This document shows positions 26,782-41,235 of a stretch of DNA of 64,000 bases, in pieces. The stretch's first letter is position 1; each line of letters begins with the position of its first letter. The notes under the pieces are model-generated. The model worked only from the letters and a program-made list of their open reading frames with translations, did not search any database and had not been told where the DNA came from. Source of the DNA: Acidobacteriota bacterium (GTDB taxonomy: Bacteria; Acidobacteriota; Terriglobia; Bryobacterales; Bryobacteraceae); the NCBI GenBank assembly GCA_947470805.1, contig CANIVU010000029.1:1583-65582 (forward strand). Direction: 5' to 3'. A program made the position numbers and the translations under genes.

Positions 26782-26990
26782 CTTGCCTCTCCCAATTCCG
26801 CCTTATCCGTGTGGCAACTGCCTTTGTTGGCGCAACCACCGCCGCAGCCGTGGAGCATAAAGTCCAGAACGTCCTTGTCCGGGTTCCGGCACCCGGAGCG
26901 CCGGCGAACCACGTTCTGTAGAAAGACCCAGAAACAGAGGACGGCAAATAATCCGCCCACCGCACGCAGTAGATTCCAGAGTTCGCTCAT
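26778..26990 (-). CDS. 70-aa Cys-rich single-TM micro-protein
   Basis: MSELWNLLRAVGGLFAVLCFWVFLQNVVRRRSGCRNPDKDVLDFMLHGCGGGCANKGSCHTDKAELGEAR. In the track it is hidden as the tail of the spurious 238-aa ORF 26778..27494. ATGA overlaps at both ends, with rnfA and with FNR. Confidence 0.6.
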   Translation of the reverse strand: MSELWNLLRAVGGLFAVLCFWVFLQNVVRRRSGCRNPDKDVLDFMLHGCGGGCANKGSCHTDKAELGEAR

Positions 26991-27571
26991 CCGCCACCTC
27001 CCATACCGGCGAAGCCCATGAAGGCCATCGAAAGCACGCTGGCCAGCACTAGCGTGAGGGCGGTGCCGCGGGCGAGGCTGGAAATGTCGGAAAGTTCCGT
27101 GCGTTCCCGGACCAGCGCGAGCAGGCACATGGCCATGCAGTAACCGCCGCTGGCCGACAGCGCAAAGACGGTGCTTTGTACGAAGTTGTAGTTGCGTGCC
27201 GTTTGAAAGAGCGGCACGGCGAGCACGGCGCAATTGGTGGTGATCAGCGGCAGGTAGACGCCGAGTTCGCGGAACAGCGCCGGGCTGTTCTTCTTGATGA
27301 ACATCTCCGTCAACTGCACAGTGGCGGCGATGATGACGATGTAGACGATTAACCGCAGATATTCGACGTGGAGCATGACCAGCACGATGTTCATGCCGTA
27401 GGAAAGAATGCCGCTGACGGTGATGACGAACATGACCGAGACGCCCATGCGCCATGCAGTGGAGAACTTCGCCGACAGGCCCAGGAACGAACACATCCCG
27501 AGAAAAACGCAGAGAACGAAGTTATTGATGAGGAACGAGTCGACGAATATGTGACCTAGTGATTCATTCAT
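26987..27571 (-). CDS. rnfA: Rnf complex subunit A
   Basis: ORF trimmed to ATG 27571. MNESLGHIFVDSFLINNFVLCVFLGMCSFLG..., a six-TM RnfA/NqrE-type protein. Confidence 0.92.
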   Translation of the reverse strand: MNESLGHIFVDSFLINNFVLCVFLGMCSFLGLSAKFSTAWRMGVSVMFVITVSGILSYGMNIVLVMLHVEYLRLIVYIVIIAATVQLTEMFIKKNSPALFRELGVYLPLITTNCAVLAVPLFQTARNYNFVQSTVFALSASGGYCMAMCLLALVRERTELSDISSLARGTALTLVLASVLSMAFMGFAGMGGGG

Positions 27572-28224
27572 GAGCGCACCTCGGCGGGCTGGATTTCCGT
27601 GAGACCGGCTTGCAGTTGCCGTTGCTTCCGTTCCCGGAAGGTGGCGAAGACGAGCAGCCAGATGGCGAGCGAAATGAAGCCTCCGGGAGGGAGGAGGAAC
27701 AGCACCCACGGCTCAAAGTTGGGGCCAAACAGCGGGATGCTGAGGAACGTGCCGGCGCCCAGAACTTCGCGCACCGTACCCAGGCAGGTGAGGCCGAAGG
27801 CGAAGCCCAGGCCCATACCGGCGCCGTCCATCATGGAGGGGATAACGGGCTTCTTGGCGGCGAAGGCTTCGGCGCGTTCGAGTACCAGGCAGTTGGCGAC
27901 GATCAATGGGATGAACGGCCCGAGCGCCTTGTACACCGGGATGCTGATGGCTTTGACGAGATAATCCGTCACCGTGACGGCAGTGGCGATGATGGCGATA
28001 TAAGTCGCGATGCGCACCTGTTTGGGGACGTGTTTGCGGATGGCGGCGATGAGGCCGTTGGAGATCACCAGAACGAAGGCGGTGGCCAGGCCCATGGCGA
28101 TGGCGTTGCGCACGCTATTGGTGATGGCGAGCGTCGGGCACATGCCGAGGATCTGGACGAATGTCGGGTTCTGACGCCAGAGGCCGTTCAGAAAGGGGTT
28201 CGGAGGTGTGGTGGTGGTGCTCAT
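27568..28224 (-). CDS. rnfE: Rnf complex subunit E
   Basis: GLWRQNPTFVQILGMCPTLAITNSVRNAIAMG, an RnfE/NqrD-type protein. Confidence 0.92.
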   Translation of the reverse strand: MSTTTTPPNPFLNGLWRQNPTFVQILGMCPTLAITNSVRNAIAMGLATAFVLVISNGLIAAIRKHVPKQVRIATYIAIIATAVTVTDYLVKAISIPVYKALGPFIPLIVANCLVLERAEAFAAKKPVIPSMMDGAGMGLGFAFGLTCLGTVREVLGAGTFLSIPLFGPNFEPWVLFLLPPGGFISLAIWLLVFATFRERKQRQLQAGLTEIQPAEVRS

Positions 28225-28847
28225 CAGTTTCCTCGCTCAATGCGCTCTTTGTTGCGCTGAATGACGGGCTCCATTTCGCGGATGCTGTTGGCCAGCAGGC
28301 GGCCGACGGCGCGGGAGGAGATGGTGGCGCCGGAGATGGCGTCGATCTCCCAGGGGTTCTTTTTGGTGCCGTGCTTGACGGCGGTGATGGGGTGGCTGGC
28401 GTCGAGCGCCTTGAAGTTGGCCAGGAAGTCCGGATCGGTACCGATCTTGTTGCCGAGGCCGGGCGTTTCCCGCATTTCGACGACGGTGAAGCCGGTGACG
28501 GTTTTGGCCGAGGGCGAGTAGGCGTACATGGCCGAGATGATGTCAGCGTAGCCGCGTTCATTGGCTTCGAGCACGACGCCGAGCAGTTTGCCGCCTTTGT
28601 CGTAACCGGCAAAGAGGCGTTTGGCGGTAGTCTCGCCGCCGGTGTGAACGGCGAGTTCGCCGGAGGGCTCGATGACGTAGACCGTCTGGTGATCCATGCC
28701 GGGGAGCAGTTGGATGAGCGACTCACGGAGGATGGTTTCCTGATTGATCTGGATGCGGCCGTGGGTGACGATGTTGACGCCGACGATCAGCATGCCGCAG
28801 ATCAGGGAGAGCACACCGAGAAATCGAATCATGACGACGCTGTTCAT
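28224..28847 (-). CDS. rnfG: Rnf complex subunit G (FMN-binding)
   Basis: ORF trimmed to ATG 28847. N-terminal TM anchor. Flavinylation motif AISGATISSRAV. Confidence 0.88.
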   Translation of the reverse strand: MNSVVMIRFLGVLSLICGMLIVGVNIVTHGRIQINQETILRESLIQLLPGMDHQTVYVIEPSGELAVHTGGETTAKRLFAGYDKGGKLLGVVLEANERGYADIISAMYAYSPSAKTVTGFTVVEMRETPGLGNKIGTDPDFLANFKALDASHPITAVKHGTKKNPWEIDAISGATISSRAVGRLLANSIREMEPVIQRNKERIERGN

Positions 28848-29902
28848 ATGGCACCTTCCGGTTTGCGCGCGCCGTAGGGGCGGGGCGGCGTCAGGCGGTC
28901 GATCAGCGGGGACAGCGCGTTGCCGAGAAGGATGGCGCACATGACGCCTTCGGCGAGGCCGCCGAGGTTGCGGATGAGGATGGTCAACACGCCCATCAGC
29001 ACGCCGTAGATCCACATGCCGCGCGGGGTGACCGGGGAGGCCACCGGGTCCGTCGCCATGAAGGTGGCGCCGAGGAGCAGGCCGCCGGTGAAGAGCATGA
29101 AGAGCGGGTCGGGGTAGCGGGCAGGGTCAAGGAGATGGAACCCCGCCGCCGCTGCCACCGCCCCGCTCAGCATCGCTACGGGGATGCGCCAATCCATCAT
29201 GTGGCGGAAGACCAGGTAGGCGCCGCAGAGGAGAATCAGGAACCCCGGGATTTCGCCCGATGAGCCCGCGCGCTGGCCCCAGAACATGGGCCAGGGGTCG
29301 GTGTAGATGTGGTCGAATTTTTGGAGGACTAATGGAGTGGCGCCGGTGAAGCCGTCGACGCGGACCTGCGAGATCCAGTCGGCGATGGGCGGCGGTTTCA
29401 TCAGCGGCATGGTCCAGGTGGTGGGGACGAATTCGGCGAAGCGCGCTTTGGCTAGGGTCGGCGTGTAGGTGGTGATGGCCACCGGGAAAGCCGCTTGCAG
29501 AAAGGCGCGGCCGACGAGGGCCGGATTGAAGACATTAGACCCGAGACCGCCGAAGAGCAGTTTGCCGGGGGCGATGGCGACCAGGCTGCCGAGCAACGCC
29601 ATCCACAGCGGGAAGCCGGGAGGGAGAGTGAGCCCGAGCAACAGGCCGGTGATGGCGGCGCTGTAGTCGTTGACGGTGGAGGCATTGCCATTGGCGCGGC
29701 AGAGAATATGTTCGGCCAGCACGCAACCGGCGGTGGTTGTCGCGAGCAGCACCAGGGCGCTGAGGCCGAACTGCCAAACGGAGAACGCGGCCAGCGGCAG
29801 CATGGCGTAGACCACGTTCCGCATGATCATGTCCACGGAAAGCGGCCCGTGAAGATGCGGGGACGTGCGGACTTCGATGATGGTCGTGGTGACACCGCTC
29901 AT
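28844..29902 (-). CDS. rnfD: Rnf complex subunit D
   Basis: ORF trimmed to ATG 29902. SPHLHGPLSVDMIMRNVVYAMLP and FTGATPL (flavinylation-type motif). Polytopic. Confidence 0.92.
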   Translation of the reverse strand: MSGVTTTIIEVRTSPHLHGPLSVDMIMRNVVYAMLPLAAFSVWQFGLSALVLLATTTAGCVLAEHILCRANGNASTVNDYSAAITGLLLGLTLPPGFPLWMALLGSLVAIAPGKLLFGGLGSNVFNPALVGRAFLQAAFPVAITTYTPTLAKARFAEFVPTTWTMPLMKPPPIADWISQVRVDGFTGATPLVLQKFDHIYTDPWPMFWGQRAGSSGEIPGFLILLCGAYLVFRHMMDWRIPVAMLSGAVAAAAGFHLLDPARYPDPLFMLFTGGLLLGATFMATDPVASPVTPRGMWIYGVLMGVLTILIRNLGGLAEGVMCAILLGNALSPLIDRLTPPRPYGARKPEGAI

Positions 29903-31224
29903 GCGCGCGCCTTCCTTTCCCGGTTCATCTGCTTGGCGACTCGGAAATACTGCACCAGCGGGATGTGCGCCGGACAGACATAGCTGCAACAGGCGCATTC
30001 AAAACAGTCGTTCAAGTGGTAGATCTCTTCCATCTCTTCGTAGCGATCCTTGCGCGCCAGCAGGCCCAGGTGGGAGGGGTCCAGATGCAGCGGGCAGACA
30101 TCGACGCAGGCCGCGCAGTGGATGCAGGGGTAGATAGTTTCGGCCTTCTTCGCGGGCATCACCAGGACGCCGGTAACGCCTTTGGTGAGGGGGATGTCGA
30201 AGGAGCCGACGGCCGGGCCCATCATGGGGCCGCCGAGGATGATCGACGCCGCCTGGTCGGTGCAACCGGCTTGTTCCAGCACCCAGCGCAACGGCGTGCC
30301 GAGGGGGATGAGGTAGTTGCCGGGCTTGCTGACGGCGGGTCCGGTGACGGTGACGACGCGCTCAATGAGCCCGTGGCGGTGCGGCAGCAGTTCGCCGATC
30401 TGGGCGAGCGTGGCGACGTTGAAGACGGCGAGGCCGACATCGGCGGGCAGACCACCGGTGGGGATTTCGCGGCCGAGCAACACTTTGACCAGCATCTTCT
30501 CGGCGCCTTGCGGGTACTTGGCGGCGACGGCTTCGATGGTGATATCAGGCCGGTCCGCATTGGCTTTGCGGAGCGCGGCGATGGCGTCCGGCTTGTTGTC
30601 TTCGACGCCGATGACGGCGCGTTCGACACCGAGCGCCCGCATCACCACACGCGTGCCGTGTAGCACCTGTTTGGGGTACTCCACCATCACGCGATGATCA
30701 GTGGTGAGATACGGTTCGCACTCGCAACCATTGACGACGACGGTATCGATATGCCGTCCCTGCGGGGGCTTCAATTTGACGTGTGTCGGGAATGCCGCGC
30801 CGCCCAGACCCACGACGCCGGTCGCCTGCACGGCGGCGATGACTTCAGCCGGCGACATCTGTGTGATGTCCTGATCGGAGCCGTAGAGCACCTCCTGGCT
30901 GGCGCTGGGATACGGCTTGATGTAGATGGCCATGGTCAACTCGCCGCGGGCGCTGGGCGCCGGGGCGATGCGTTCCACGCGGCCGGTGGCGGGGGCGTGC
31001 ATGGGGACGCTCATGAAGCCATCGGCTTCAGCGATCGGTTCACCTCGCACCACTTCCTGACCCTCGCGAACGATGGCCTTGGCCGGTTTGCCGGCGTGTT
31101 GCAACAGCGGGACGACGAGCAATGGCGGGAACGGCAGACGCCGAATCGGCAGATGCGCGGTCTGCTCCTTGTTTTCCGGGACATGTACGCCCCGCCATAA
31201 CCGTTTTGTTCCGAAGAGGTTCAT
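29899..31224 (-). CDS. rnfC: Rnf complex subunit C
   Basis: VPLLQHAGKPAKAIVREGQEVVRGEPIA. NADH-site-like GLGGAAFPTHVKL. Two 4Fe-4S motifs, CIHCAACVDVCP and CFECACCSYVCP. Confidence 0.92.
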   Translation of the reverse strand: MNLFGTKRLWRGVHVPENKEQTAHLPIRRLPFPPLLVVPLLQHAGKPAKAIVREGQEVVRGEPIAEADGFMSVPMHAPATGRVERIAPAPSARGELTMAIYIKPYPSASQEVLYGSDQDITQMSPAEVIAAVQATGVVGLGGAAFPTHVKLKPPQGRHIDTVVVNGCECEPYLTTDHRVMVEYPKQVLHGTRVVMRALGVERAVIGVEDNKPDAIAALRKANADRPDITIEAVAAKYPQGAEKMLVKVLLGREIPTGGLPADVGLAVFNVATLAQIGELLPHRHGLIERVVTVTGPAVSKPGNYLIPLGTPLRWVLEQAGCTDQAASIILGGPMMGPAVGSFDIPLTKGVTGVLVMPAKKAETIYPCIHCAACVDVCPLHLDPSHLGLLARKDRYEEMEEIYHLNDCFECACCSYVCPAHIPLVQYFRVAKQMNRERKARA

Positions 31225-31243: not shown

Positions 31244-34200
31244 CTAGTTGTACTTCGCCGCGCGCTTCACGAGCTTCTCCAAATCCTTCTCCGACGGGTC
31301 CATGGGCTGCCCGGGGTGAATGACCTGCGCCGTGCACTTTTCGGCCGCTTTCACCAGATCGCGATACGGTCCGCCCTTCGCGTTCTTGATAATGGCCTGT
31401 TTGTTCTCGTTGTAGGCGAAGATGCGGTTGTTGATCCGCATGCACTCGTCGCAAGAGGTGCACATGGAGGATTCGATCCAAGGTGCGCTGGAGGCCGCGG
31501 CGGGGGCGGCGGGAGCCGGGGCGGGGGCGACCGATGTCGCTGTAGGGACCGGGGCGGCGACGGCCTTGACGGCCATCGGCGCCGGAGCCGCGCCGTCACC
31601 GAGCAGGCTGCCATTGGCAACCATCTCCAGCAACTGCGCCGCAATGGACTGCGCGAATTCGCTGCGCGCCTGTTCGGCGATCGCCGTTGTGTCGACGGCG
31701 GGCCGGACGCCTGCCAGCGACTTCAAGAGCCGCCAGAAGTGGCGTCGATCCTCGCAGGAGTGAACCAACGGTTCGGCGGGAATCACGCGGATCAGCTTGT
31801 TCTTCTTGTTCACCGCCCAGATGTAGGGGAACTTCCCTTCCCTGTCGTCGGCTTCGAACTCTAGATACTCGGCGAGCGGGACCATGTTGTCGTTCCAGGC
31901 GTCGCGCGGTACCGTGCGGAACTGTTTGCGGAAGCGGCCTTCGGTCATGGCGAAGTCGGCGAAGGTCATCGGGACCTCCATTTCGCCGGGCGCGCCGTTC
32001 TCGTCCTGATACTTCAGGGTATAGGTCGGCCAGTCGTCGTCGAGCGAGGGATTGCCGTCGAGGTTCAAGCACTCTTCCGGCAGGTTTCCCTTGTCGGGGT
32101 TGTAGCGGAGGATGGGGTAGGCCCGCGATTCGACGGCGAGCTTGCTCTGGAATTCCGCCAGATCGTCGGCGATTCCGTGCTCCGGCATGCAGGGGCTGTA
32201 GATGTTGAACAGCGCTGGCCGGCGAGCGTTCAGGCCTTCGACGAACGATTCGATCAGGTGCGACGTATTCGCCGTCGTGCCCTGGGCGATGAAGGTCGTT
32301 CGGTGCGCCATGCCGATGAGCGCGATCTCCTTTCGGATCTCTTCCTTGCCGTGGAACGCTTTGCCGTACTGAGCCATATCGGAAACCTGACCCGTAAAGC
32401 CGGACGTGCATGCCTGGCCGCCGGTGTTCGAATAGACCTGCGTATCGAGCACCAACACCTTGATCGGCTTACCGGACATCATCATGCGCGACAGGTTTTG
32501 GAAGCCGATATCGTACATCGCGCCATCGCCGCCGATGGAGACGACAGGCGGGCAGAGGTGGAACTCCTCGTCGGTGAACTGCTTCCAGTTGAAGTAGGTG
32601 AAGAACTCGCCGTGCTTCTCTTTGCGGTAACCGCCGTCGAGTTCCATCTCGGCCATCCGGATGGCGACGAAGCCTTCGGCCATGCGGGCCATGTGGCCTT
32701 CAAAGATACCCATCGCCATGGACGGCGAATCCTGGAAGAGGTGGTTCGTCCACGGGAACGGGTAGGGGTTGAAGGGGTAGGTCGACGCCCATACGGACGT
32801 GCAACCGGTGGAGTTGACGATGCCCATGCTGGCGCGGCCGCGGCGGCCGGCACCGTCGGTGTACTGCCAGCGCAGGTGCTTCAACTTGGCGATTAGCTGC
32901 GACACCCAGCGGAGCCATTCCGGATCGATGGTCTTGCCGGCGTGGCGGGCGTCGAGTTGTTCAGAGAAACTCGCCAGCGTGACATCGGCGTTGTGCAGAT
33001 GGTCGAGCGCGTTGGCCACACGGGCGTCGTCACTGAGATCGATCGTGGCCGCGAGCTTCAACCGCGTGTGCTGGTCGAGCCGGGCAATCAGATCGTCGAT
33101 CTTCTCAATCTGCCGGGCCACGCGCGGTTGCATCAGCGCTTCCGCGGTCGCAACAAAGAGGTGCACCACGGTCTTCTCACCACAGCCCAGGCAGGCGCCG
33201 TCGCCGCCCACCATGCCCATGTAGTTCTTCCTGTCGAGCAGCAGCGTATGCAGCGCGCCGATGCCCTCGTCGAGGCTATCGATGCGTATGAACTCGGGGG
33301 CCGTTGTCGGCAGGGACTGCCACAGATCCCAGTTACGCCGCAGCTTCTCCGTCGATTCCGGCGTCTGCGTCACCGGCTTCAGCGCGTTGTCGTTACAGAC
33401 CTTGACACACTCCATGCAGCCCTTACAGGCGAACGGATTGACGGTAATCGACAACAGACCGCCGGATCCCTGCTGCTTTTTCTCGCGCGCCGTCCAGAAG
33501 GGCTGCGGCGTGGCAAAGGCAAAGTCACCGACCGCGGCGCGCAGGTTGTGCAGTTCCTCGGTGAGTTCCTTCTTCTCGGTGTTTTCGAGCGGATAGGCCG
33601 CCAGCAAATCTTCCATCGCGGCGTCGAGCATCTTGCCGACGTCGGGCCTGCTCATGCCGTCGCCGAGCTTCGCGCGCAGCTTCTGGTCCAAGGTACGAAT
33701 GGCTCGGGGCAACTGCCTGGCTGGCTGGCCGTTGGCGATCACTTTCTTCATCGCCGTTTCCAACACGGCCAGCACAGAGTGCACGAGGCCGGGAATCGCG
33801 CTGTCGGGACAAATCGTGTAGCAGGCGCCGCACGCCGTGCAGTTCTCCGGCAGCCATTCGGGATGCTCGAACCGCACGCCGGTCATGTCGCGGAACAGAG
33901 CCGTGGTGGCGGGGATGAAGCTGAGGCCGATAAACGGGTCGGCCAGATTGTCGTTCCCGCGGCCGGTGGCGTAAAAGGTGCCGGTCTGCTCCCAGAAGCG
34001 GTGGATGTCGGTGGTCGCCGTCGCCGCGGCCACTTGCCGCTGCAGCACCATCGGCACATCCGGCGCCTTGCGAACGGCGAGCGGAGTGGCGTTGATTTTT
34101 TTGTCTTTAATCTCCTTCACCTCGTCGAATCCGCGGCGCACGACGCGCACGTTGTCTTCTACCACTCGCGCGCCCTTGGTGCCGAACTTGTGCTCGAGTT

Positions 34201-36184
34201 GCAAGCGGATGGCCTGGAACAGATTCTGATCGGTCAACTTCGCCTGGCCCATCAACGGCGAGGCCGCAAAGAAGGCGCCCTGGAAGGCGTTGCCCTGCAT
34301 GCGGAACTGCAGTTCGACGTCAGTGGCCTCTTCGCGGGCGATTTTAAAGGCGTCCAGGTAGTAGAGGTGAATCTCGTTGTCGATCAGAATCCGCTGGAAC
34401 TTCTCAGGAATCTGTTGCCAGACGTCGGCCGGATCGGTATGCGCGCTCTGCAAAATGAACACGCCGCCGCGCTTCAAACCAGCCAGAGGATTGGAGTGCA
34501 GGAACACGTTCGGATCGGGCGAGAGCACCACGTCCACGTAGAAGTAGTCGCAGTTGACGCGAATCGGCTCGGGCGCCGCGGCCAGGTAGTAGGTGGTCGG
34601 TTGCCCCTTCTTTTCGGAACCGTATTTCGGGTTGGCTTTGATGTGATAGCCCAACAGGTCAAACAGCGTCATCGCCAGGTTTTTGCCTGTCGTGATCGCG
34701 CCCCAGCCGCCCACCGAATGGAACCGCACAGTGATGCTGTTTTTCGGCATCAGGTTCGGATTCTCGCTGCCATGGACGGCCAGCGCCTTCAGCCCCGGAT
34801 AGGCGTCGGCCACCTGGATCTGATGGATCTCCTGTTTCGGTGTGAACGGCTTGTCGTGCACGAAGTCGATCGACAGGTAGAAAAACCTCCGTTTGCCGCC
34901 GTTCGGCAACATGTTTTCAATCGCGCCAATCAGCCCTTCCGGCTGTAAGTCGCGGCTGCCCAGGCCGAACGAACCGGAATACAGCGGCGGCATATCTTCG
35001 GCTTTTTTATAGCTCGCGTAGCCTTCGTGCACCACGCCGGAGCGGCCATTCTCCACGCAGCGGCCCAGCGCCGCGCGCACTTCACGGATCAGCGGCAAAT
35101 CTTCGGCCAGCGGTTGATCCACGCGTTCCAGTACGGTCACGCCCTTGCGGCCCTGCAGCAAGGCGCCCAGCACATCGCCGGGGAACGGGCGGAACATCGT
35201 AAGGTTCACGACGCCCACTTTCAGCTTCCGGGTCTCGCGCAGATAGTCGGCCACAACCTCGGCCGTCACCAGCATGCTGCCCATTCCAAGGATCAGGTAT
35301 TCAGCGTCTTCGGCGCGATAGGTGGACACGCGCTGATAGCGGCGCCCGGTCAGCGCGTAGAACTCCTCCATCGCCTGATCGGTGATCCCTGCAATATGGG
35401 CGAAGAAGTAGGGCCGTTGCGCGGCCACGCTCTGCATGTAGGCGTCCTGGTTTTGCACCGTCCCGATCATCACGGGATTGTCCACCGTCCACAGCTCCGG
35501 AATGCGGCGCCGTTGCGGCCCGTAGAGGAGCCGTTGCGCCGGGGTCGGCGTGTCGATGATGTCGTCCGGCCGGCCCAGGTATTCCTGAATCAACTCGCGC
35601 TCCGGTAGCAGCAGCGATTCGATCAAGTGCGTGGTAAGAAACCCGTCCTGCGCGCAGATGCCCGGCGTCAACGACAGTTCGGCGATCCGGTGCGAGATGA
35701 TGTTCAAATCGCACACTTCCTGCGCGCTCTTGCCAAAGAGTTGGAAGAACCCGGTGTCATCAATGCAGTGATAGTCGTCGTGGCCGGCGTGCACATTCAG
35801 CGTCGATTTCGTCATCGCGCGGCAGCCCATGTTCAGTACATAAGTGAGCCGCTTGCCGACGGCCGCGTACAGCGACTCGTGCATGTAGGCAATGCCCTGC
35901 CCCGACGAAAAATTGGTCGCGCGCAGCCCGGTCATCGAAAGCCCGGCCGTCACGGCGGCGGCGGCATGTTCGCCTTCCGGTTCAATGAAAATCAACGGGC
36001 GGCCGGAGATGTTGATGTGGCCTTTGGCCGACTCTTCAGCCCAGTATTCGCCCATCTGCGTGGAGGGAGTGATCGGGTATGCACCCGCGGCGTCGCTCGA
36101 CTCCCGTTCGCACATAACGACGGCGGTGTTCCCATCCATCGCCTGCCGCACGCCGGGGTAACGGAAGCTCTGTTTGCCATTCAT
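31244..36184 (-). CDS. Giant (1646 aa) pyruvate/2-oxoacid:ferredoxin oxidoreductase-like protein with C-terminal ferredoxin-like domain
   Basis: Core motifs: AYPITPSTQMGEYW; VRFHSVGGWGAITTGKNLA; CTACGACYTICP and CKGCMECVKVCN; GDGACLGCGEKT; STGCTSVWAS; GGDGAMYDIGFQNL...LDTQVYSNTGGQ. These are followed by an Ala/Pro linker and then CTSCDECMRINN...AAEKCTAQVIHPG. Confidence 0.9.
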   Translation of the reverse strand: MNGKQSFRYPGVRQAMDGNTAVVMCERESSDAAGAYPITPSTQMGEYWAEESAKGHINISGRPLIFIEPEGEHAAAAVTAGLSMTGLRATNFSSGQGIAYMHESLYAAVGKRLTYVLNMGCRAMTKSTLNVHAGHDDYHCIDDTGFFQLFGKSAQEVCDLNIISHRIAELSLTPGICAQDGFLTTHLIESLLLPERELIQEYLGRPDDIIDTPTPAQRLLYGPQRRRIPELWTVDNPVMIGTVQNQDAYMQSVAAQRPYFFAHIAGITDQAMEEFYALTGRRYQRVSTYRAEDAEYLILGMGSMLVTAEVVADYLRETRKLKVGVVNLTMFRPFPGDVLGALLQGRKGVTVLERVDQPLAEDLPLIREVRAALGRCVENGRSGVVHEGYASYKKAEDMPPLYSGSFGLGSRDLQPEGLIGAIENMLPNGGKRRFFYLSIDFVHDKPFTPKQEIHQIQVADAYPGLKALAVHGSENPNLMPKNSITVRFHSVGGWGAITTGKNLAMTLFDLLGYHIKANPKYGSEKKGQPTTYYLAAAPEPIRVNCDYFYVDVVLSPDPNVFLHSNPLAGLKRGGVFILQSAHTDPADVWQQIPEKFQRILIDNEIHLYYLDAFKIAREEATDVELQFRMQGNAFQGAFFAASPLMGQAKLTDQNLFQAIRLQLEHKFGTKGARVVEDNVRVVRRGFDEVKEIKDKKINATPLAVRKAPDVPMVLQRQVAAATATTDIHRFWEQTGTFYATGRGNDNLADPFIGLSFIPATTALFRDMTGVRFEHPEWLPENCTACGACYTICPDSAIPGLVHSVLAVLETAMKKVIANGQPARQLPRAIRTLDQKLRAKLGDGMSRPDVGKMLDAAMEDLLAAYPLENTEKKELTEELHNLRAAVGDFAFATPQPFWTAREKKQQGSGGLLSITVNPFACKGCMECVKVCNDNALKPVTQTPESTEKLRRNWDLWQSLPTTAPEFIRIDSLDEGIGALHTLLLDRKNYMGMVGGDGACLGCGEKTVVHLFVATAEALMQPRVARQIEKIDDLIARLDQHTRLKLAATIDLSDDARVANALDHLHNADVTLASFSEQLDARHAGKTIDPEWLRWVSQLIAKLKHLRWQYTDGAGRRGRASMGIVNSTGCTSVWASTYPFNPYPFPWTNHLFQDSPSMAMGIFEGHMARMAEGFVAIRMAEMELDGGYRKEKHGEFFTYFNWKQFTDEEFHLCPPVVSIGGDGAMYDIGFQNLSRMMMSGKPIKVLVLDTQVYSNTGGQACTSGFTGQVSDMAQYGKAFHGKEEIRKEIALIGMAHRTTFIAQGTTANTSHLIESFVEGLNARRPALFNIYSPCMPEHGIADDLAEFQSKLAVESRAYPILRYNPDKGNLPEECLNLDGNPSLDDDWPTYTLKYQDENGAPGEMEVPMTFADFAMTEGRFRKQFRTVPRDAWNDNMVPLAEYLEFEADDREGKFPYIWAVNKKNKLIRVIPAEPLVHSCEDRRHFWRLLKSLAGVRPAVDTTAIAEQARSEFAQSIAAQLLEMVANGSLLGDGAAPAPMAVKAVAAPVPTATSVAPAPAPAAPAAASSAPWIESSMCTSCDECMRINNRIFAYNENKQAIIKNAKGGPYRDLVKAAEKCTAQVIHPGQPMDPSEKDLEKLVKRAAKYN

Positions 36185-37101
36185 GAGTGCACTCCTTGAG
36201 TTGAACTATTTGCCCGCTGCAGAGGCAGGTCCGCCTCGGCCACAGGTAACGGCGATTGCCGTGTAATTCGCTTTGCGTCCAGGCCGCGCATGGGCGGCTT
36301 GTCCTTTTCCATCCACACGATTGCCCCGGTCGGGCAGCGCTGGATGGGCGTTGGTGTCGCCAGCGCGTTTCGCGCATAGTCGACCACCGCCAGATTGTTG
36401 ACAATTTGAATCAGCCCCGCAGGCGCATCCGCGGCGCAACGTCCGCACGCCGTGCAGGCAACTTCGCAATCCAACTCCGACTGCTGCCCGTCGGCTAGAT
36501 TCTTACAGGCTACCCACAGGCGGTGGCTCACCAGATGCAAAGAAAACAGTTGTTTCGGGCAGATGTCGACACAATCGCCACACGCGGTGCACATGGAAGG
36601 CATCACGACGGGCAGGCTGTGACGATCCATCGTGATCGCCTTGAAATCGCAGACCCGCTCGCAATCCCCCAGGCCCAGGCACCCCCAACTGCAACCCTTG
36701 CCACCACCGTTGACCAATGCTGCCGCACGGCAGGTCTGCAAACCCACGTATTGAGCCCGGTGGCGCGCCACATGGGGCCCGCCAGCACAGGCTAATCGCG
36801 CCACCCGGCGTTCTTCGGTCCCGGCGTCGATCTGCAATAACGCGGCGATCGCCTGCACCCCATCCGGCGTGCTAACCGTGCACTTGCCCGGCGCGATTTC
36901 GCCCTTTACCGCCTTCTCCGCGAACGCCCGGCAACCCGCGCAGCCGCAGGCGCCGCAGTTGGCCTTCGGCAGCATCCCCTCGACTTCATCGATTCGAGGA
37001 TCCTCATACACATACAACTTCCTGTCGGCATAAGCGAGCATCGCCGCCAGTGCGACCCCGATCCCGCCCATCACCCCGCCGGCAACCAGGAACTCATTCA
37101 T
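36181..37101 (-). CDS. rnfB: Rnf complex subunit B (polyferredoxin)
   Basis: N-terminal TM at VAGGVMGGIGVALAAMLAY. Motifs: CGACGCAGCRAFAEKA, then CSWGCLGLGDCERVC, CTACGDCVDICP and CTACGRCAADAP. The stop overlaps the PFOR start (ATGA 36181-36184). Confidence 0.88.
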   Translation of the reverse strand: MNEFLVAGGVMGGIGVALAAMLAYADRKLYVYEDPRIDEVEGMLPKANCGACGCAGCRAFAEKAVKGEIAPGKCTVSTPDGVQAIAALLQIDAGTEERRVARLACAGGPHVARHRAQYVGLQTCRAAALVNGGGKGCSWGCLGLGDCERVCDFKAITMDRHSLPVVMPSMCTACGDCVDICPKQLFSLHLVSHRLWVACKNLADGQQSELDCEVACTACGRCAADAPAGLIQIVNNLAVVDYARNALATPTPIQRCPTGAIVWMEKDKPPMRGLDAKRITRQSPLPVAEADLPLQRANSSTQGVHS

Positions 37102-37344
37102 ACTTTCACCCTCCTCGTCGCGCCATCCCGCCCGGAGACGGTGGGGGATATGCCCCGGTGGCCGGGGGCCCCATCGGCCCGCTCACCCGAAAGGGCGCCG
37201 GAAACGATAGAAAAAGTCCTGATTTCGGCCTTTTTTGTGGTTATCCATGTCCTCATAGTGGCTCTGTCCGCAGCTTTTCCTTCGCAAGATCAGGGCCAAA
37301 CCGGCGATTCCGTTTGGCATTCAACTTGCACCCCACCCCACCGT
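37102..37344. promoter_or_regulatory. Divergent control region between rnfB operon and apbE-kor operon
   Basis: 243-bp non-coding gap between two outward-facing start codons. It contains the only AT-rich stretch nearby (gatagaaaaagtcctgatttcggccttttttgtggttatcc). No specific operator recognised. Confidence 0.3.
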
Positions 37345-38370
37345 ATGGTCAACATCTGGCGACGTACCGCGCTCTCCCTCGCCATCGCCGGCGGCCTCTT
37401 CGGCCTCCGGTTTGTTCCCTGGGAAAAGCCGGTCTCCACCATCCGCCTCAGCCGCCCGCTCATGGGCACGCTATGGACCATTGAAGTGTTCGACGAGGCC
37501 CGCCCCGCCGCCGCCCGCGCGGCCATTGATCAGGCCTACGCCGAACTGAACCGCATCGATCGCTTGATGAGCGAGTGGAAGCCCGAGTCCCCTATCTCAC
37601 AGGTCAACGCCGCGGCCGGCCGCCATCCCGTCGAGGTCCCCGCCGAACTCCGGGAATTGATCGAACGCAGCATCCGCTACAGCCGCATCACCGAGGGCGC
37701 CTTTGACATTACATGGCGCGGCATGGGATCTATCTGGAAATTCGACGATACCTTCCGACCGCCCACCAAACAAGCCGTCGAAACAGCCCGCCGCAACGTG
37801 GACTACCGTGCCATTCAAATCCACGGCAACCGCGTTTTCCTTCCGAAATCCACGATGAGCATCGGCCTTGGCGGCATTGCCAAAGGCTACGCGGTGGACC
37901 GCGCCGCGGCCGTTCTCGCGCAAGCCGGCTTTACCAATACGATGATCGATGGCGGTGGCGACGTCCGCGTGTCCGGCGCCCGCAACGGCCAACCCTGGCG
38001 GCTGGGCATTCAACATCCCCGCCGCGAACACGGCCAACTGCTCGCCGCCGTCCAACCGCGCAATCAGTCGCTGGTTACCTCCGGCGATTATGAACGCTTC
38101 CGTATCGTCAACAACGTCCGGTACCACCACATTATCGACGTCCGCACCGGCTGGCCCGCCAACGCCGCCAGTTCCGTCAGCGTGCTCGCCCCCACCGCCG
38201 AACAGGGCGTCGTACTCGCCAAAGGCATCTTTATCCTGGGCCCGGAAAAGGGCCTCGCCCTCGCCCATACCGAAGGGGTGGAGGCGCTCCTCATCGATCC
38301 AGGCGGCCGCCTCTTCGCCACCTCCGGATTCCAGAAAGTTCTCGAATTCCCCCAACAGGAAGACAAATAG
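37345..38370 (+). CDS. apbE: FAD:protein FMN transferase (flavin transferase ApbE)
   Basis: ORF trimmed to ATG 37345. TM anchor followed by RPLMGTLWTIEV...AELNRIDRLMSEW.PESPISQVN and GGIAKGYAVD. Confidence 0.88.
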   Translation: MVNIWRRTALSLAIAGGLFGLRFVPWEKPVSTIRLSRPLMGTLWTIEVFDEARPAAARAAIDQAYAELNRIDRLMSEWKPESPISQVNAAAGRHPVEVPAELRELIERSIRYSRITEGAFDITWRGMGSIWKFDDTFRPPTKQAVETARRNVDYRAIQIHGNRVFLPKSTMSIGLGGIAKGYAVDRAAAVLAQAGFTNTMIDGGGDVRVSGARNGQPWRLGIQHPRREHGQLLAAVQPRNQSLVTSGDYERFRIVNNVRYHHIIDVRTGWPANAASSVSVLAPTAEQGVVLAKGIFILGPEKGLALAHTEGVEALLIDPGGRLFATSGFQKVLEFPQQEDK

Positions 38371-38372
38371 AC

Positions 38373-40271
38373 ATGTCCACATCCACCGTCGACGCCGATA
38401 TCGCCACACCCGCCAGCGCCGTCCAGATTGTCGATCAACACATCGTCGAGATCGTCAGTGATTCCGGCGAAGGCGCGCAAACCTGCGGCCAGATGTTTGC
38501 CGACCTTTGCGCGCGCAACGGCAACGGCATTTGGACCGTCGAGATCATCCCGGCCGAAATCGAACCCCCCAGCCGTTCCCGCGCCGGCGCCAGCGGCAAC
38601 CGCATCCGCCTTGGTTCCAAGCCAGTCACCAACGCCGGCGATTGCGCCGATATCGTCGTCGCGCTGAACGAACAGGTTCTCTACAGCCGGATCGACGCCG
38701 GAGCACTCCGCCCAGGCACCACCGTCTTCGTCGACAAAACATGGGCCGAAAGTCCCGACGAGGACATCCGCCGCCGCTACGCCGAAGCCATCACCGACTT
38801 CAACGCCCGGTCCTACTTTGTCGTCGAATCACCCATCGAAGCCGAGTGCCGCAAACACACCGACGACCCGAAAAAGGGCAAAAACATGTGGGTTCTCGGC
38901 TTGTTGTGCGCCATCTATGATCTGGACCGCTCCAGCGTCGGTGCCAATATCGCCAAGCGCTTCGCTAAGAAGGGCGAAGCCGTCATCAACAAAAACCTCG
39001 CTCTTTTCACCGACGGCTACGACTGGGCCCTCGCTCACGTCCGCCAGCGCTACCGGATCCCCGCGCAGAAACACACGCAGCCAATGGTTGTCATGAATGG
39101 CAATCAGGCAATCGGCCTCGGCATCATGGCGGCCGGCATCGAAGTCTGCTCCATGTATCCCATCACCCCGGCAACCTCCGCCTCCCACTTCCTGGCGCAA
39201 GCCCTCCAGGACGCCGGCGGCTTCGTCCACCAGGCCGAGGATGAGATCGCCGCCATCGGGTTCGCCATCGGCGCCTCCTACGCCGGCAAGACTGCGGTCA
39301 CGATCACCTCCGGCCCCGGCCTCGCACTCAAGACCGAGTTCCTCGGCTACGCCGGAATGGCCGAAGTCCCGTTGGTCATCGTCGTGGTTCAACGCGGCGG
39401 CCCCTCCACCGGGCTGCCCACCAAGATCGAACAGGGCGACCTGCTCGCCGCGCTCTACGCATCCCCCGGCGACAGCCCGAAGATCATCCTCGCCCCGGCC
39501 ACCATTGAAGAGTGTTTCCACTTCATGATCACCGCCCGCAAGCTCGCCGAAGACTTCCGCGGGCCAGTCATGGTGCTCTCCGATGCCAATCTCGCCACCG
39601 GCCAGCAGCCCTTCCCAAAACCCCAACTGCAAACCGATTGGCTCGCGGCTCCCATCGACCAGGCCGCCTGGGATCAAACGGTCCCGCCCTTCGCCTGGGA
39701 CGCGGAGACCGGTCTCTCCAAACGCCCCATTCCCGGCCAGCGCGGCGGCGAATACGTGTTGACAGGCCTCGCGCACGACGAGGAAAGCCACGTCGCCTAC
39801 GAATCGGCCATCAACCAAAAAACTATGGAAATGCGCAGCCGCAAACTCGCGGTGCTGCAAAGCGTGCTGCGGCCGCCCAAGGTCTACGGCGACCCCGAAG
39901 GCGACCTGCTTGTCATCGGCTGGGGCTCCACGCTTGGCTGTATTGAAGAGGCCGTCGACCAGTTGCGTGCCGAAGGCAAGCGCGTCTCCTCCATCCACCT
40001 GCGCTTCCTCTCGCCCATGGAACCGGGGCTCAAACAGATCTTCCAGAAGTTTCGCCGCGTCATGACCGTGGAGGTGAATTATAGCGACCCTGTCGGGGCA
40101 CCCTACATCACCCCCGAATCCCGGCGCTATTCGCAACTGGCGCAACTGCTGCGCTCCCAAACCCTCGTCGACATCGATTGCTGGGGGCAAGTCCCCGGCA
40201 GCCCCATCCCCCCGTCGAAGATCGCCGCCGAACTTCGCCGCCGCCTCGACGCGATCACCAAGGAGAACTAA
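38373..40271 (+). CDS. korA: 2-oxoacid (2-oxoglutarate):ferredoxin oxidoreductase alpha subunit (gamma-alpha fusion type)
   Basis: Gamma-like segment IVSDSGEGAQTCGQMF...IVVALNEQ, then alpha segment MNGNQAIGLGIMAAGIEVCSMYPITPATSASHFL. It starts 2 nt after the apbE stop. Confidence 0.9.
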   Translation: MSTSTVDADIATPASAVQIVDQHIVEIVSDSGEGAQTCGQMFADLCARNGNGIWTVEIIPAEIEPPSRSRAGASGNRIRLGSKPVTNAGDCADIVVALNEQVLYSRIDAGALRPGTTVFVDKTWAESPDEDIRRRYAEAITDFNARSYFVVESPIEAECRKHTDDPKKGKNMWVLGLLCAIYDLDRSSVGANIAKRFAKKGEAVINKNLALFTDGYDWALAHVRQRYRIPAQKHTQPMVVMNGNQAIGLGIMAAGIEVCSMYPITPATSASHFLAQALQDAGGFVHQAEDEIAAIGFAIGASYAGKTAVTITSGPGLALKTEFLGYAGMAEVPLVIVVVQRGGPSTGLPTKIEQGDLLAALYASPGDSPKIILAPATIEECFHFMITARKLAEDFRGPVMVLSDANLATGQQPFPKPQLQTDWLAAPIDQAAWDQTVPPFAWDAETGLSKRPIPGQRGGEYVLTGLAHDEESHVAYESAINQKTMEMRSRKLAVLQSVLRPPKVYGDPEGDLLVIGWGSTLGCIEEAVDQLRAEGKRVSSIHLRFLSPMEPGLKQIFQKFRRVMTVEVNYSDPVGAPYITPESRRYSQLAQLLRSQTLVDIDCWGQVPGSPIPPSKIAAELRRRLDAITKEN

Positions 40272-40273
40272 CC

Positions 40274-41227: not shown

Positions 41228-41235
41228 AGGATGCC

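What the first reader, a model, noticed from the sequence alone, without database searches (positions are those of the whole stretch)
31244..36184. 1646-aa PFOR with a ~100-residue insertion in the TPP domain, an Ala/Pro tether and an extra C-terminal single-cluster ferredoxin-like domain
Seen: the usual PFOR domain order is recognisable, using the motifs listed in the feature entry. The protein is however about 400-450 residues longer than the ~1170-1230-aa homodimeric PFORs I remember. The extra length comes from three parts.
- (i) About 120 residues lie between CLGCGEKT and STGCTSVW (QPRVARQIEKIDDLIARLDQH...KLKHLRWQYTDGAGRRG). Canonical enzymes have roughly 20 there.
- (ii) A ~40-residue Ala/Pro linker, AAPAPMAVKAVAAPVPTATSVAPAPAPAAPAAASSAP (nt ~31481-31600).
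- (iii) A final 78 residues (nt 31247-31480) with C-x2-C-x2-C...C spacing (CTSCDECMRINNRIF...AAEKCTAQVIHPG). This spacing is typical of small [3Fe/4Fe-4S] ferredoxins.

Inference: the enzyme carries its own acceptor ferredoxin on a flexible tether. That ferredoxin could shuttle electrons to RnfB or FNR, which are encoded in the same operon.
Basis: partly seen in the sequence, partly recalled or inferred. Interest (0 to 1): 0.65.

Follow-up and report, generated by a model that had tools for sequence, protein, structure and literature searches.

The report
Rnf-operon PFOR with tethered ferredoxin
This is a real, widely conserved but uncharacterised giant pyruvate:ferredoxin-oxidoreductase-type enzyme that carries its own small iron-sulfur ferredoxin on a floppy tether and is always encoded inside the operon of the Rnf ion pump, which suggests a hard-wired link between 2-oxoacid metabolism and membrane energy conservation in mostly aerobic bacteria.

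Summary
The 1646-aa ORF (31244-36184, minus strand) is real and not a chimera. More than 120 protein clusters and 56 full-length genes from at least 8 phyla share its length and architecture.

It keeps every PFOR catalytic motif and all 12 Cys of the three canonical [4Fe-4S] clusters. It adds five parts:
- a 102-residue helical insertion in the TPP domain;
- a roughly 160-residue structured C-terminal extension;
- a disordered Ala/Pro linker of 20-131 residues;
- a 78-residue mono-cluster ferredoxin with four invariant Cys, closest in sequence and fold to D. africanus ferredoxin I.

The gene overlaps the rnfB stop codon, and rnfC follows within 300 bp in 70 of 71 assessable genomes. A plant-type FNR follows rnfCDGEA in 59 of 60. 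No free ferredoxin gene lies in the operon.

A sister family between rnfB and rnfC has lost TPP binding, the proximal cluster and the tail, yet keeps both insertions. In the four such loci read, the tail sits on an accessory protein next to korAB.

Best reading: a built-in swinging-arm ferredoxin couples an active OFOR to Rnf and FNR. The direction (oxidative or pyruvate-synthesising) is unresolved. I found no literature on this architecture. It is a new variant of a known kind.

The parts
31244..36184 (-). Long-form PFOR-type 2-oxoacid:ferredoxin oxidoreductase, 1646 aa plus stop codon.
   Evidence: ORF and translation. Pfam and NCBIfam domains. PDB PFOR hits at E 1e-90 and 4e-81. More than 120 full-length homologues.
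35063..36094 (-). Domains I-II (POR_N and PFOR_II, residues 31-374). They include YPITPS, the TPP-activating Glu and the substrate Arg122.
   Evidence: The motifs are present in the window protein.
34124..34711 (-). Domain III (POR, the CoA-binding gamma-type domain, residues 492-687).
33380..33859 (-). Domain V, the ferredoxin-like domain. Two CxxCxxCxxxC motifs at 782-792 and 920-930 provide the medial and distal [4Fe-4S] clusters.
   Evidence: All 8 Cys are conserved in 120-121 of 121 homologues and in 57/57 genome genes.
33530..33775 (-). Domain V insertion, residues 804-885. It is a predicted four-helix unit between the two cluster motifs and adds 82 residues relative to YdbK.
   Evidence: AlphaFold helices at 804-817, 825-840, 849-862 and 869-885, pLDDT about 90. 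Spacing is 127 vs 45 residues. No Pfam match. Mean identity across phyla is only 36%.
32090..33217 (-). Domain VI, the TPP (PP) domain, residues 990-1365. It holds the proximal-cluster Cys 998, 1001, 1128 and 1332, the GGDG motif (1218-1221) and YSNTGGQ.
32831..33181 (-). Domain VI insertion, residues 1002-1118. It contains a 44-residue helix and three further helices and adds 102 residues relative to YdbK.
   Evidence: Spacing is 126 vs 24 residues, and length is fixed at 126-128 in all homologues. Helices have pLDDT 76-94. Mean identity across phyla is 61%. No Pfam family reaches its cut-off; best match E 0.03.
31610..32089 (-). Structured C-terminal extension (CTD), residues 1366-1525: beta strands followed by two long helices.
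   Evidence: pLDDT 81-91. No Pfam match. Found as a module with linker and Fd in other proteins.
31481..31609 (-). Ala/Pro-rich disordered tether, residues 1526-1568.
   Evidence: pLDDT 28-34 with no secondary structure. Length is 20-56 aa in 121 homologues and 25-131 aa in genome genes. Composition is A 34% and P 17%.
31247..31480 (-). C-terminal mono-cluster [4Fe-4S] ferredoxin domain, residues 1569-1646. Cluster ligands are Cys1575, 1578, 1581 and 1617. It ends in a conserved HPGxPxDPxEKDxxKLxKRAAKYN segment.
   Evidence: Fer4_13 28.5 bits alone, matched by 15/15 members. 1fxr E 5.5e-8. Foldseek to 1fxr gives TMt 0.76 and 0.85. Cys are invariant.
36181..37101 (-). rnfB (306 aa, poly-ferredoxin type). 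Its TGA stop overlaps the PFOR ATG (ATGA).
29899..31224 (-). rnfC. It starts 19 nt after the PFOR stop, preceded by an AGGAG ribosome-binding site.
   Evidence: TIGR01945 494.7 bits. Junction sequence.
26987..29998 (-). rnfD, rnfG, rnfE and rnfA.
   Evidence: Pfam NQR2_RnfD_RnfE, FMN_bind and Rnf-Nqr twice.
26778..26990 (-). Small ORF of 70 aa with one TM helix and a Cys-rich tail, between rnfA and the FNR gene.
   Evidence: Translation. tblastn finds it at the same position in 33 loci. No Pfam or NCBIfam hit.
25918..26781 (-). Plant-type ferredoxin-NADP+ reductase-like gene, 287 aa, the last gene of the operon.
   Evidence: NAD_binding_1. PetH and BoxA type, E 1e-55. Present downstream of rnfA in 59/60 loci.
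37141..41227 (+). Divergent apbE (flavin transferase), korA and korB (a two-subunit 2-oxoacid:acceptor oxidoreductase).
   Evidence: The same arrangement occurs in Bryobacterales loci.
41203..42762 (+). A 519-aa accessory protein following korAB. It is a degenerate paralogue of PFOR residues 1114-1488 and an orthologue of the Fd-tailed 'X' proteins of other phyla. Here it has no tail.
   Evidence: BLASTP E 8e-21 to the PFOR. E 2e-40 to the 871-aa Fd-tailed protein of L083. No Pfam or NCBIfam hit.

Best explanation
The gene encodes a catalytically intact, single-chain 2-oxoacid:ferredoxin oxidoreductase, most likely acting on pyruvate. The canonical wire of TPP plus three [4Fe-4S] clusters is extended by a fourth [4Fe-4S] cluster. 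That cluster sits in a small ferredoxin domain at the end of a disordered Ala/Pro tether about 40 residues long.

The tethered ferredoxin acts as the enzyme's private one-electron carrier. It is proposed to swing between the distal cluster of the PFOR body and the ferredoxin-accepting subunit RnfB of the co-transcribed Rnf complex, and/or the co-transcribed FNR. This would resemble the lipoyl arms of 2-oxoacid dehydrogenases.

Pyruvate oxidation would then be coupled to NAD+ reduction with ion translocation, or to NADPH formation, without a freely diffusing low-potential ferredoxin. The two helical insertions and the C-terminal extension are proposed to form the docking and shielding platform that holds the enzyme at Rnf.

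- Shown: the anatomy, the conservation, the ferredoxin identity of the tail, the disorder of the linker and the synteny.
- Inferred: the swinging, the RnfB/FNR partnership, the physical association with Rnf, the substrate and the direction of electron flow.
For: 1. Intact catalytic machinery. YPITPS, the TPP-activating Glu, Arg122, GGDG and YSNTGGQ are present, and 12/12 cluster Cys are invariant or nearly so.

2. The tail is a ferredoxin.
- Fer4_13 scores above its cut-off when the tail is scanned alone, and 15/15 members match.
- The tail profile hits D. africanus Fd I at E 5.5e-8 across all four Cys.
- The predicted fold matches 1fxr, 1fxd, 1iqz, P. furiosus Fd and T. maritima Fd.
- The four Cys are invariant in 121 + 57 sequences.

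3. The tether is predicted disordered, variable in length (20-131 aa) and low in identity (30%). Its flanking domains are conserved at 63-72%.

4. Operon structure. ATGA overlap with rnfB and a 19-nt gap to rnfC. rnfC lies within 300 bp in 70/71 loci. rnfCDGEA is complete in 58/60 and FNR present in 59/60. rnfB is adjacent in 45/65 loci or follows FNR in 17/65. These loci span at least 8 phyla.

5. The operon encodes one ferredoxin-coupled oxidoreductase and two ferredoxin-coupled partner systems (Rnf and FNR), but no free ferredoxin gene.

6. Either/or pattern. In Planctomycetota and Gammaproteobacteria the long PFOR-like protein between rnfB and rnfC has lost TPP binding and the proximal cluster and has no tail (0/120), while the korAB-associated X protein carries CTD, linker and Fd. 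In an Elusimicrobiota locus the X protein also carries the tail next to a PFOR-like gene upstream of rnfC, but that PFOR-like protein was not checked for these motifs. In the window the active PFOR has the tail and X lacks it.

7. The dead sister family keeps the domain V clusters and both insertions at the same lengths. This argues that the long-form body has an Rnf-linked role beyond catalysis.
Against: There is no experimental evidence and no multimer model.

The tail domain is near neutral (median pI 7.8), unlike the acidic free ferredoxins that normally serve PFOR. Its docking rules may therefore differ.

NCBIfam's PFOR equivalog model scores only 427.6 bits against a cut-off of 911, so the substrate is not established.

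The direction of electron flow is open. Related 'PFOR' copies in Kentron symbionts were interpreted as pyruvate synthases (PMC6593406).
Confidence: 0.6

Rival explanations
1. The architecture is the same but the physiology is reversed. Rnf, driven by the ion gradient and NADH, and/or FNR using NADPH, reduces the tethered ferredoxin. The enzyme then works as a pyruvate synthase, carboxylating acetyl-CoA for anaplerosis or for assimilating acetate or PHA in aerobes.
For: OFOR reactions are reversible, and Rnf runs in reverse in aerobes such as Azotobacter (PMC12174285). I. album and Kentron genome papers assign PFOR plus Rnf to acetyl-CoA carboxylation (PMC3362086; PMC6593406). korAB lies in the same locus. 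An Acidobacteria comparative study lists por/nifJ and korAB as possible carboxylases (PMC5900883).
Against: Nothing in the sequence fixes the direction. From general knowledge, the hosts are heterotrophs that would also possess pyruvate dehydrogenase. An oxidative PFOR-Rnf route would give an extra coupling site. The FNR fits either direction.
Confidence: 0.4
2. The ferredoxin-like domain does not swing. It is permanently docked on the body or on the partner protomer as a fixed fourth cluster. In that position it lengthens the wire or shields the distal clusters from O2, in the manner of D. africanus domain VII. The Ala/Pro segment would be only a surface loop.
For: [quoted passage not shown] The tail has high pLDDT (86-91) when modelled with the body. 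The hosts are mostly aerobes (general knowledge).
Against: A fixed domain would not need a tether of 20-131 residues with variable length, low complexity and predicted disorder. The same CTD-linker-Fd module works on three different host proteins. One representative carries two tandem Fd domains (P0190).
Confidence: 0.2
3. The tail is a redox- or O2-sensing or regulatory Fe-S domain, or a [3Fe-4S] form, and not an electron carrier.
For: Small Fe-S domains can act as sensors. The pI is atypical for a carrier ferredoxin.
Against: The full CxxCxxC...C ligand set is invariant with no Asp or Ala at the second position, and the closest relatives are bona fide carrier ferredoxins. The operon lacks any other ferredoxin. 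The either/or distribution tracks the active OFOR.
Confidence: 0.05
4. The ORF is an assembly or frameshift artefact that joins a PFOR gene to a ferredoxin gene.
For: None found.
Against: There are 120 independent clusters of 1608-1675 aa from NCBI, JGI, ENA and Logan. There are 56 full-length genes in genomes, including the isolates Marivirga sericea DSM 4125 and Aestuariibacter salexigens DSM 15300. Base composition is uniform across the gene.
Confidence: 0.01

Closest known systems
Homodimeric single-chain PFOR (D. africanus 1B0P, M. thermoacetica 6CIN, E. coli YdbK; NCBIfam TIGR02176)
   Same: Same domain order I-II-III-IV-V-VI, the same TPP motifs, three [4Fe-4S] clusters and substrate Thr/Arg/Asn.
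   Different: About 470 residues longer. It has helical insertions in domains V (+82) and VI (+102), an elaborated C-terminal extension, a tether and a fourth cluster domain. It scores 427.6 bits against the 911-bit equivalog cut-off. A 2025 survey states that reported OFORs have 1-3 clusters and one, two or four polypeptides (PMC12337175).
D. africanus ferredoxin I and other mono-cluster Fer4_13/Fer4_15 ferredoxins (1FXR, 1FXD, 1IQZ, P. furiosus and T. maritima Fd)
   Same: The CxxCxxC...C ligand pattern, and the fold (TMt 0.76-0.85, rmsd 1.6-1.7 A). These are small ferredoxins of the type that serve as free carriers for such enzymes.
   Different: Covalently tethered and near-neutral in pI. 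Thr replaces the usual Pro after the fourth Cys. It carries a conserved 22-residue C-terminal helix (HPG...KRAAKYN) that is absent from the free proteins.
Pyruvate:NADP+ oxidoreductase (PNO) of Euglena and Cryptosporidium, a PFOR fused to a C-terminal electron-acceptor module (from general knowledge)
   Same: The principle is the same: a PFOR body with its electron acceptor fused at the C-terminus.
   Different: PNO carries a CPR-type FMN/FAD/NADPH flavoprotein. Here the fused acceptor is a tethered [4Fe-4S] ferredoxin, and the NADP+ reductase (FNR) is a separate gene.
Swinging-arm lipoyl domains on Ala/Pro-rich linkers in E2 of 2-oxoacid dehydrogenase complexes (from general knowledge)
   Same: A small carrier domain on an Ala/Pro-rich flexible linker that serves several active sites of a 2-oxoacid-oxidising system.
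   Different: The chemistry is unrelated (lipoamide versus an Fe-S cluster) and there is no homology. The resemblance is an analogy only.
Rnf (RnfABCDGE) ferredoxin:NAD+ oxidoreductase operons
   Same: All six rnf genes are present in the canonical C-D-G-E-A order, with apbE nearby.
   Different: A 5-kb OFOR gene lies between rnfB and rnfC, and an FNR gene follows rnfA. The 2025 RNF/NQR review, searched for pyruvate, gene-cluster and related terms, gave no passage describing this arrangement (PMC12174285).

Membership tests
OFOR superfamily, single-chain PFOR architecture | Domains I, II, III, V and VI in canonical order. | tested here: met
   Pfam POR_N, PFOR_II, POR, Fer4 motifs and TPP_enzyme_C occur in order. 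PDB PFORs match at E 1e-90 and 4e-81.
OFOR superfamily, single-chain PFOR architecture | TPP-binding GDG...N motif, the TPP-activating Glu and the substrate Thr/Arg. | tested here: met
   GGDG 1218-1221, YSNTGGQ, YPITPS, Glu in EGEHAAA and Arg122 are present. They are invariant or nearly invariant in the 80-sequence alignment.
OFOR superfamily, single-chain PFOR architecture | Twelve Cys ligating the proximal, medial and distal [4Fe-4S] clusters. | tested here: met
   Cys 782/785/788/792, 920/923/926/930 and 998/1001/1128/1332 are conserved in 120-121 of 121 and in 57/57 sequences.
NCBIfam TIGR02176 pyruvate:ferredoxin (flavodoxin) oxidoreductase equivalog (NifJ/YdbK type) | Whole-protein score above the curated cut-off of 911.35 bits. 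| tested here: not met
   The score is 427.6 bits in three pieces. The protein is therefore not filed as a NifJ equivalog. NCBI names its homologues only '2-oxoacid:acceptor oxidoreductase family protein'.
PFOR (functional definition) | Pyruvate- and CoA-dependent ferredoxin reduction. | not testable with these tools
   This needs an enzyme assay. The small residues at the substrate pocket (L/V at the D. africanus 121/123 positions, from memory) are only suggestive.
Mono-cluster [4Fe-4S] ferredoxin (Pfam Fer4_13) | Score above the gathering threshold, and a CxxCxxC...C ligand set. | tested here: met
   28.5 bits against 24.5 when scanned alone. In the full-length scan the score is 21.5, below the cut-off. 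15/15 family members match, best E 2.6e-10. Cys are invariant.
Mono-cluster [4Fe-4S] ferredoxin (Pfam Fer4_13) | Ferredoxin fold. | tested here: met
   Foldseek finds 1fxr with probability 1.00, TMt 0.76 (tail alone) and 0.85 (in context), followed by nine further mono-cluster ferredoxins. The Foldseek E-value is modest (9e-3) because the domain is short.
Mono-cluster [4Fe-4S] ferredoxin (Pfam Fer4_13) | Actual binding of a redox-active cluster. | not testable with these tools
   This needs EPR and iron analysis.
PNO-type PFOR fusions | A C-terminal CPR-like flavodoxin and FAD/NADPH module. | tested here: not met
   No flavodoxin, FAD_binding or NAD_binding hit anywhere in the 1646 aa.
D. africanus-type PFOR with domain VII | A homologous C-terminal domain VII carrying the protective disulfide. 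| tested here: inconclusive
   The HMMER alignment to 1b0p ends at query residue 1366. The extension 1366-1525 has no Pfam match. Residue-level structural superposition was not possible.
Rnf operon | rnfA, B, C, D, E and G all present and contiguous. | tested here: met
   The genes are contiguous except for the inserted PFOR gene.

The most novel reading that the evidence does not exclude
The long PFOR-like protein is a bona fide peripheral subunit of a distinct class of Rnf complex. Its two helical insertions and C-terminal extension dock it on RnfB/RnfC, and a swinging-arm ferredoxin feeds electrons from an active OFOR straight into Rnf. That OFOR is either the PFOR body itself or a neighbouring KorAB-X enzyme.

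The result would be an ion-translocating 2-oxoacid:NAD+ oxidoreductase supercomplex. Aerobes would gain an extra energy-coupling site, or a PMF-driven carboxylase, without ever releasing free low-potential ferredoxin into an oxic cytoplasm.
Probability: 0.35. Interest if true: 0.85.

Novelty: new variant of a known kind. Interest (0 to 1): 0.68.

Why it matters
Rnf complexes and OFORs are usually treated as separate enzymes that communicate through a diffusible ferredoxin, and mainly in anaerobes.

Here an OFOR with a covalently tethered ferredoxin is written into the rnf operon in hundreds of species of mostly aerobic phyla: Acidobacteriota, Bacteroidota, Proteobacteria, Verrucomicrobia, Calditrichota and others. 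A catalytically dead sister family occupies the same operon position.

If the coupling is real, three things follow:
- It identifies the physiological electron donor or acceptor of these Rnf complexes.
- It explains how low-potential electrons could be handled in the presence of O2.
- It offers a natural design, a carrier on a tether, for engineered pyruvate/CO2 interconversion and NAD(P)H regeneration.

Two cultured hosts, Marivirga sericea DSM 4125 and Aestuariibacter salexigens DSM 15300, make it directly testable.

Tried and rejected
- Chimera or frameshift: rejected.

- Known curated family: NCBIfam has no model that the protein passes. Pfam has nothing for the two insertions, the C-terminal extension, the 519-aa accessory protein or the 70-aa ORF.

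- Literature: eight full-text searches and six papers read found no description of a PFOR with a tethered ferredoxin or of a PFOR gene inside rnf operons. The searches covered PFOR, Rnf, ferredoxin domain, fusion, tether, Acidobacteria, Bryobacter, Kentron and nifJ/rnfB/rnfC. [quoted passage not shown] The library is incomplete, so absence is not proof.

- Structure: the tail-alone model was only moderately confident (pLDDT 76.8, and only one of five models was good). The in-context model was better.

- Tail on the window's korAB accessory protein: I checked whether it had a tail in a downstream ORF. The next ORF (42783-43169) is a truncated-haemoglobin-like protein, not a ferredoxin.

- The fold search of the 887-residue model returned only PFOR, OFOR and ThDP enzymes plus 1fxr. 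It gave no separate match for the insertions.
Full report
**Observation**

The minus-strand ORF 31244-36184 encodes 1646 aa. Base composition is uniform across it.

Pfam finds the PFOR domain order:
- POR_N 31-259
- PFOR_II 294-374
- POR 492-687
- 4Fe-4S motifs around 782-792 and 920-930
- TPP_enzyme_C 1213-1327
- Fer4_13 at 1571-1623, weak in the full-length scan

The solved PFORs of M. thermoacetica and D. africanus match at E 1e-90 and 4e-81. They align only in pieces, with the query unaligned around 800-890 and 1005-1120.

NCBIfam's PFOR equivalog TIGR02176 scores 427.6 bits against a cut-off of 911. The protein is therefore a divergent member of the superfamily and not a NifJ/YdbK orthologue.

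**Where the extra length sits**

I aligned the protein with E. coli YdbK (1174 aa, fetched) and measured motif spacing. The results are:
- +13 residues at the N-terminus.
- Three insertions of 11-24 residues in domains I-III.
- 127 residues instead of 45 between the two cluster motifs of domain V (+82).
- 126 residues instead of 24 between Cys1001 and Cys1128 of domain VI (+102).
- An elaborated C-terminal extension at 1366-1525.
- The Ala/Pro linker at 1526-1568.
- The 78-residue tail at 1569-1646.

They explain less than half of the excess.

**Predicted structure**

AlphaFold2 on residues 760-1646 with an 80-sequence alignment gave mean pLDDT 75. It predicts:
- The domain V insertion is four helices (804-885, pLDDT about 90).
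- The domain VI insertion is a 44-residue helix plus three more helices (1002-1109, pLDDT 76-94).
- The C-terminal extension is a structured beta-plus-helix unit (pLDDT 81-91).
- The linker is disordered (pLDDT 28-34, no secondary structure).
- The tail is a compact domain (pLDDT 86-91).

None of the new segments reaches a Pfam family's cut-off.

**The tail is a ferredoxin**

- Scanned alone, it passes Fer4_13 (28.5 bits against 24.5). All 15 diverse family members match, with best E 2.6e-10.
- A profile of the tail finds D. africanus ferredoxin I (1FXR) at E 5.5e-8, aligned across all four Cys.
- The predicted fold matches 1FXR best (TMt 0.76 alone, 0.85 in context, rmsd 1.6-1.7 A). The next matches are other mono-cluster ferredoxins.
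- Cys1575, 1578, 1581 and 1617 are invariant in 121/121 database homologues and in 57/57 full-length genes from genomes.
- All three Cys of the CxxCxxC motif are present, so a [4Fe-4S] cluster is expected and not a [3Fe-4S] cluster. This is an inference.
- The domain is near neutral (median pI 7.8). It ends in a conserved helix, HPGxPxDPxEKDxxKLxKRAAKYN.

**The enzyme looks active**

YPITPS, the TPP-activating Glu, the substrate Arg, GGDG, YSNTGGQ and all 12 canonical cluster Cys are present and conserved.

**Not an artefact, and widespread**

The first database search returned 120 clusters at 69-96% identity, all 1608-1675 aa long. They are named only 'pyruvate-ferredoxin/flavodoxin oxidoreductase' (JGI) or '2-oxoacid:acceptor oxidoreductase family protein' (NCBI).

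A scan of one genome per GTDB species with the tail profile found 422 stretches that encode a relative of the tail. The best 80 come from:
- Acidobacteriota, mainly Bryobacterales, to which the window evidently belongs (tail 96% identical to L001)
- Bacteroidota
- Hydrogenedentota
- Verrucomicrobia
- Calditrichota
- Spirochaetota
- Myxococcota
- Alpha- and Gammaproteobacteria

They include the isolates Marivirga sericea DSM 4125 and Aestuariibacter salexigens DSM 15300.

Across these phyla the core domains stay 75-84% identical on average. The domain VI insertion is 61% identical and fixed at 126 residues. The domain V insertion is 36% identical and the linker 30%, with lengths of 25-131 residues.

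**Context**

On the minus strand the operon reads rnfB, PFOR, rnfC, rnfD, rnfG, rnfE, rnfA, a 70-aa Cys-rich membrane ORF, and a plant-type FNR.
- The rnfB stop overlaps the PFOR start (ATGA), with an AAGGAG site upstream.
- rnfC starts 19 nt after the PFOR stop.
- apbE, korA, korB and a 519-aa ORF are transcribed divergently.
- No free ferredoxin gene lies in the operon.

In the fetched genome loci:
- rnfC follows the long PFOR within 300 bp in 70/71 assessable cases.
- rnfCDGEA is complete in 58/60.
- The FNR is present in 59/60.
- rnfB is immediately upstream in 45/65, or follows the FNR in 17/65 (the Bacteroidota order).

**A portable module and a dead sister family**

Searching 1.84 billion representatives with residues 1354-1646 gave 666 hits at E <= 1e-30. 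In the listed hits that cover the tail, the module sits at the C-terminus of its host. The hosts are about 600 aa, about 730-890 aa or about 1350-1690 aa long.

The shorter hosts have no Pfam domain except Fer4_13. They are named 'ferredoxin' or 'hypothetical'.

- In a Leptospiraceae genome, a 609-aa protein of this kind follows korB.
- In Planctomycetota and two Gammaproteobacteria, the order is korA, korB, X (Fd-tailed, 839-871 aa), rnfB, PFOR-like (about 1526-1563 aa), rnfCDGEA.
- In Elusimicrobiota the same parts occur in a different order.

The PFOR-like protein in these loci is a sister family. In 120 clusters:
- It has lost the TPP motifs.
- It has lost the proximal cluster: Cys998 is Glu in 120/120 and Cys1332 is Ser in 117/120.
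- It has no tail (0/120).
- It keeps the domain V cluster motifs in at least 107/120.
- It keeps both insertions at the same lengths.

The window's 519-aa ORF after korB is the orthologue of X (E 2e-40) but has no tail. It is a degenerate paralogue of PFOR residues 1114-1488.

In the five loci examined, the tail sat on the long PFOR where that protein is catalytically intact (the window). It sat on the KorAB-associated X protein in the four others. In the three of those whose PFOR-like protein was checked (L083, L086, L087), that protein belongs to the family that has lost TPP binding. The long-form body keeps its place between rnfB and rnfC even when catalytically dead.

**Mechanism**

The best-supported reading has three steps:
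1. 2-oxoacid oxidation at TPP sends electrons along the three canonical clusters.
2. The tethered ferredoxin picks them up at the distal cluster.
3. It delivers them to RnfB, giving NAD+ reduction with ion export, or to FNR, giving NADPH.

The system may also run in reverse for acetyl-CoA carboxylation.

A linker of about 40 residues could span well over 100 A (inference). Ala/Pro-rich linkers of this kind carry the lipoyl domains of 2-oxoacid dehydrogenases (general knowledge). The insertions and the extension are candidates for an Rnf-docking or O2-shielding platform.

The anatomy, conservation and synteny are shown. The swinging, the partners, the substrate and the direction are inferred.

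**Comparison with what is known**

A 2025 survey describes reported OFORs as having 1-3 clusters and one, two or four polypeptides. It treats D. africanus domain VII as the only special C-terminal extension (PMC12337175). A term search of the 2025 RNF/NQR review turned up no mention of a PFOR gene in rnf operons (PMC12174285).

Genome papers mention PFOR and Rnf side by side without noting this architecture.

The closest fusion precedent is eukaryotic PNO, a PFOR fused to a CPR-type flavoprotein (general knowledge). No such flavoprotein module is present here.

I therefore class the finding as a new variant of a known kind. It is uncharacterised and widespread, and cultured hosts are available for testing.

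Noticed in passing
window 41203-42762 (+): A 519-aa ORF after korAB with no Pfam or NCBIfam hit. It is a degenerate paralogue of long-PFOR residues 1114-1488 in which GDG and YSNTGGQ are lost. It is the tail-less orthologue of the Fd-tailed 'X' proteins of 600-870 aa that follow korAB in other phyla.
   Followed up: partly
L083 11626-16266; L086 9001-13581; L087 9001-13692; proteins P0289-P0408: A sister family of PFOR-like proteins of about 1500-1580 aa lies between rnfB and rnfC. It has lost the TPP motifs and all proximal-cluster Cys and has no Fd tail. It keeps the domain V clusters and both insertions. Sources name it '4Fe-4S binding protein' or 'hypothetical'. Hosts include Planctomycetota, Thiomargarita, Ca. 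Thiodiazotropha and Ca. Kentrum.
   Followed up: partly
L032 7426-10237 (Leptospiraceae): korB is followed by a 609-aa protein whose last 315 residues match long-PFOR residues 1354-1646 (36% identity), including the linker and the Fd. This shows that the C-terminal extension, tether and Fd form a portable module.
   Followed up: partly
It is much less conserved (36% mean identity) than the domain VI insertion (61%).
   Followed up: yes
window 26778-26990 (-): A 70-aa ORF with one TM helix and a Cys-rich tail (C-x14-CGGGC-x5-C) between rnfA and the FNR gene. It overlaps both neighbours and is conserved at this position in 33 loci. It may be an NqrM-like maturation factor (from memory), but no family hit was found.
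   Followed up: partly
protein P0190 (1432 aa): This representative carries two Fer4_13/Fer4_15 domains in tandem at its C-terminus, that is, two tethered ferredoxins.
   Followed up: no
L087 18468-22692: In a marine gammaproteobacterial contig, a second rnfB-like gene lies directly downstream of the first rnf operon. It is followed by a second PFOR-like gene that does have POR and weak TPP_enzyme_C hits.
   Followed up: no
window 42783-43169 (+): A 128-aa ORF resembling a truncated (group I) haemoglobin, judged from memory of the YDRIGG...F motif. It lies just after the korAB-X genes. Hemerythrin genes sit at comparable positions in L083, L084 and L085.
   Followed up: no
window 19547-21604 (-): A 685-aa ORF with two CAACH haem-c motifs, apparently a di-haem cytochrome c-type protein. 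It is probably unrelated to the finding.
   Followed up: no
long PFOR across L001-L080: Core domains are 70-84% identical between Acidobacteriota, Bacteroidota and Proteobacteria. This is unusually high for such distant phyla and suggests horizontal spread of the whole rnf-PFOR-FNR operon.
   Followed up: no
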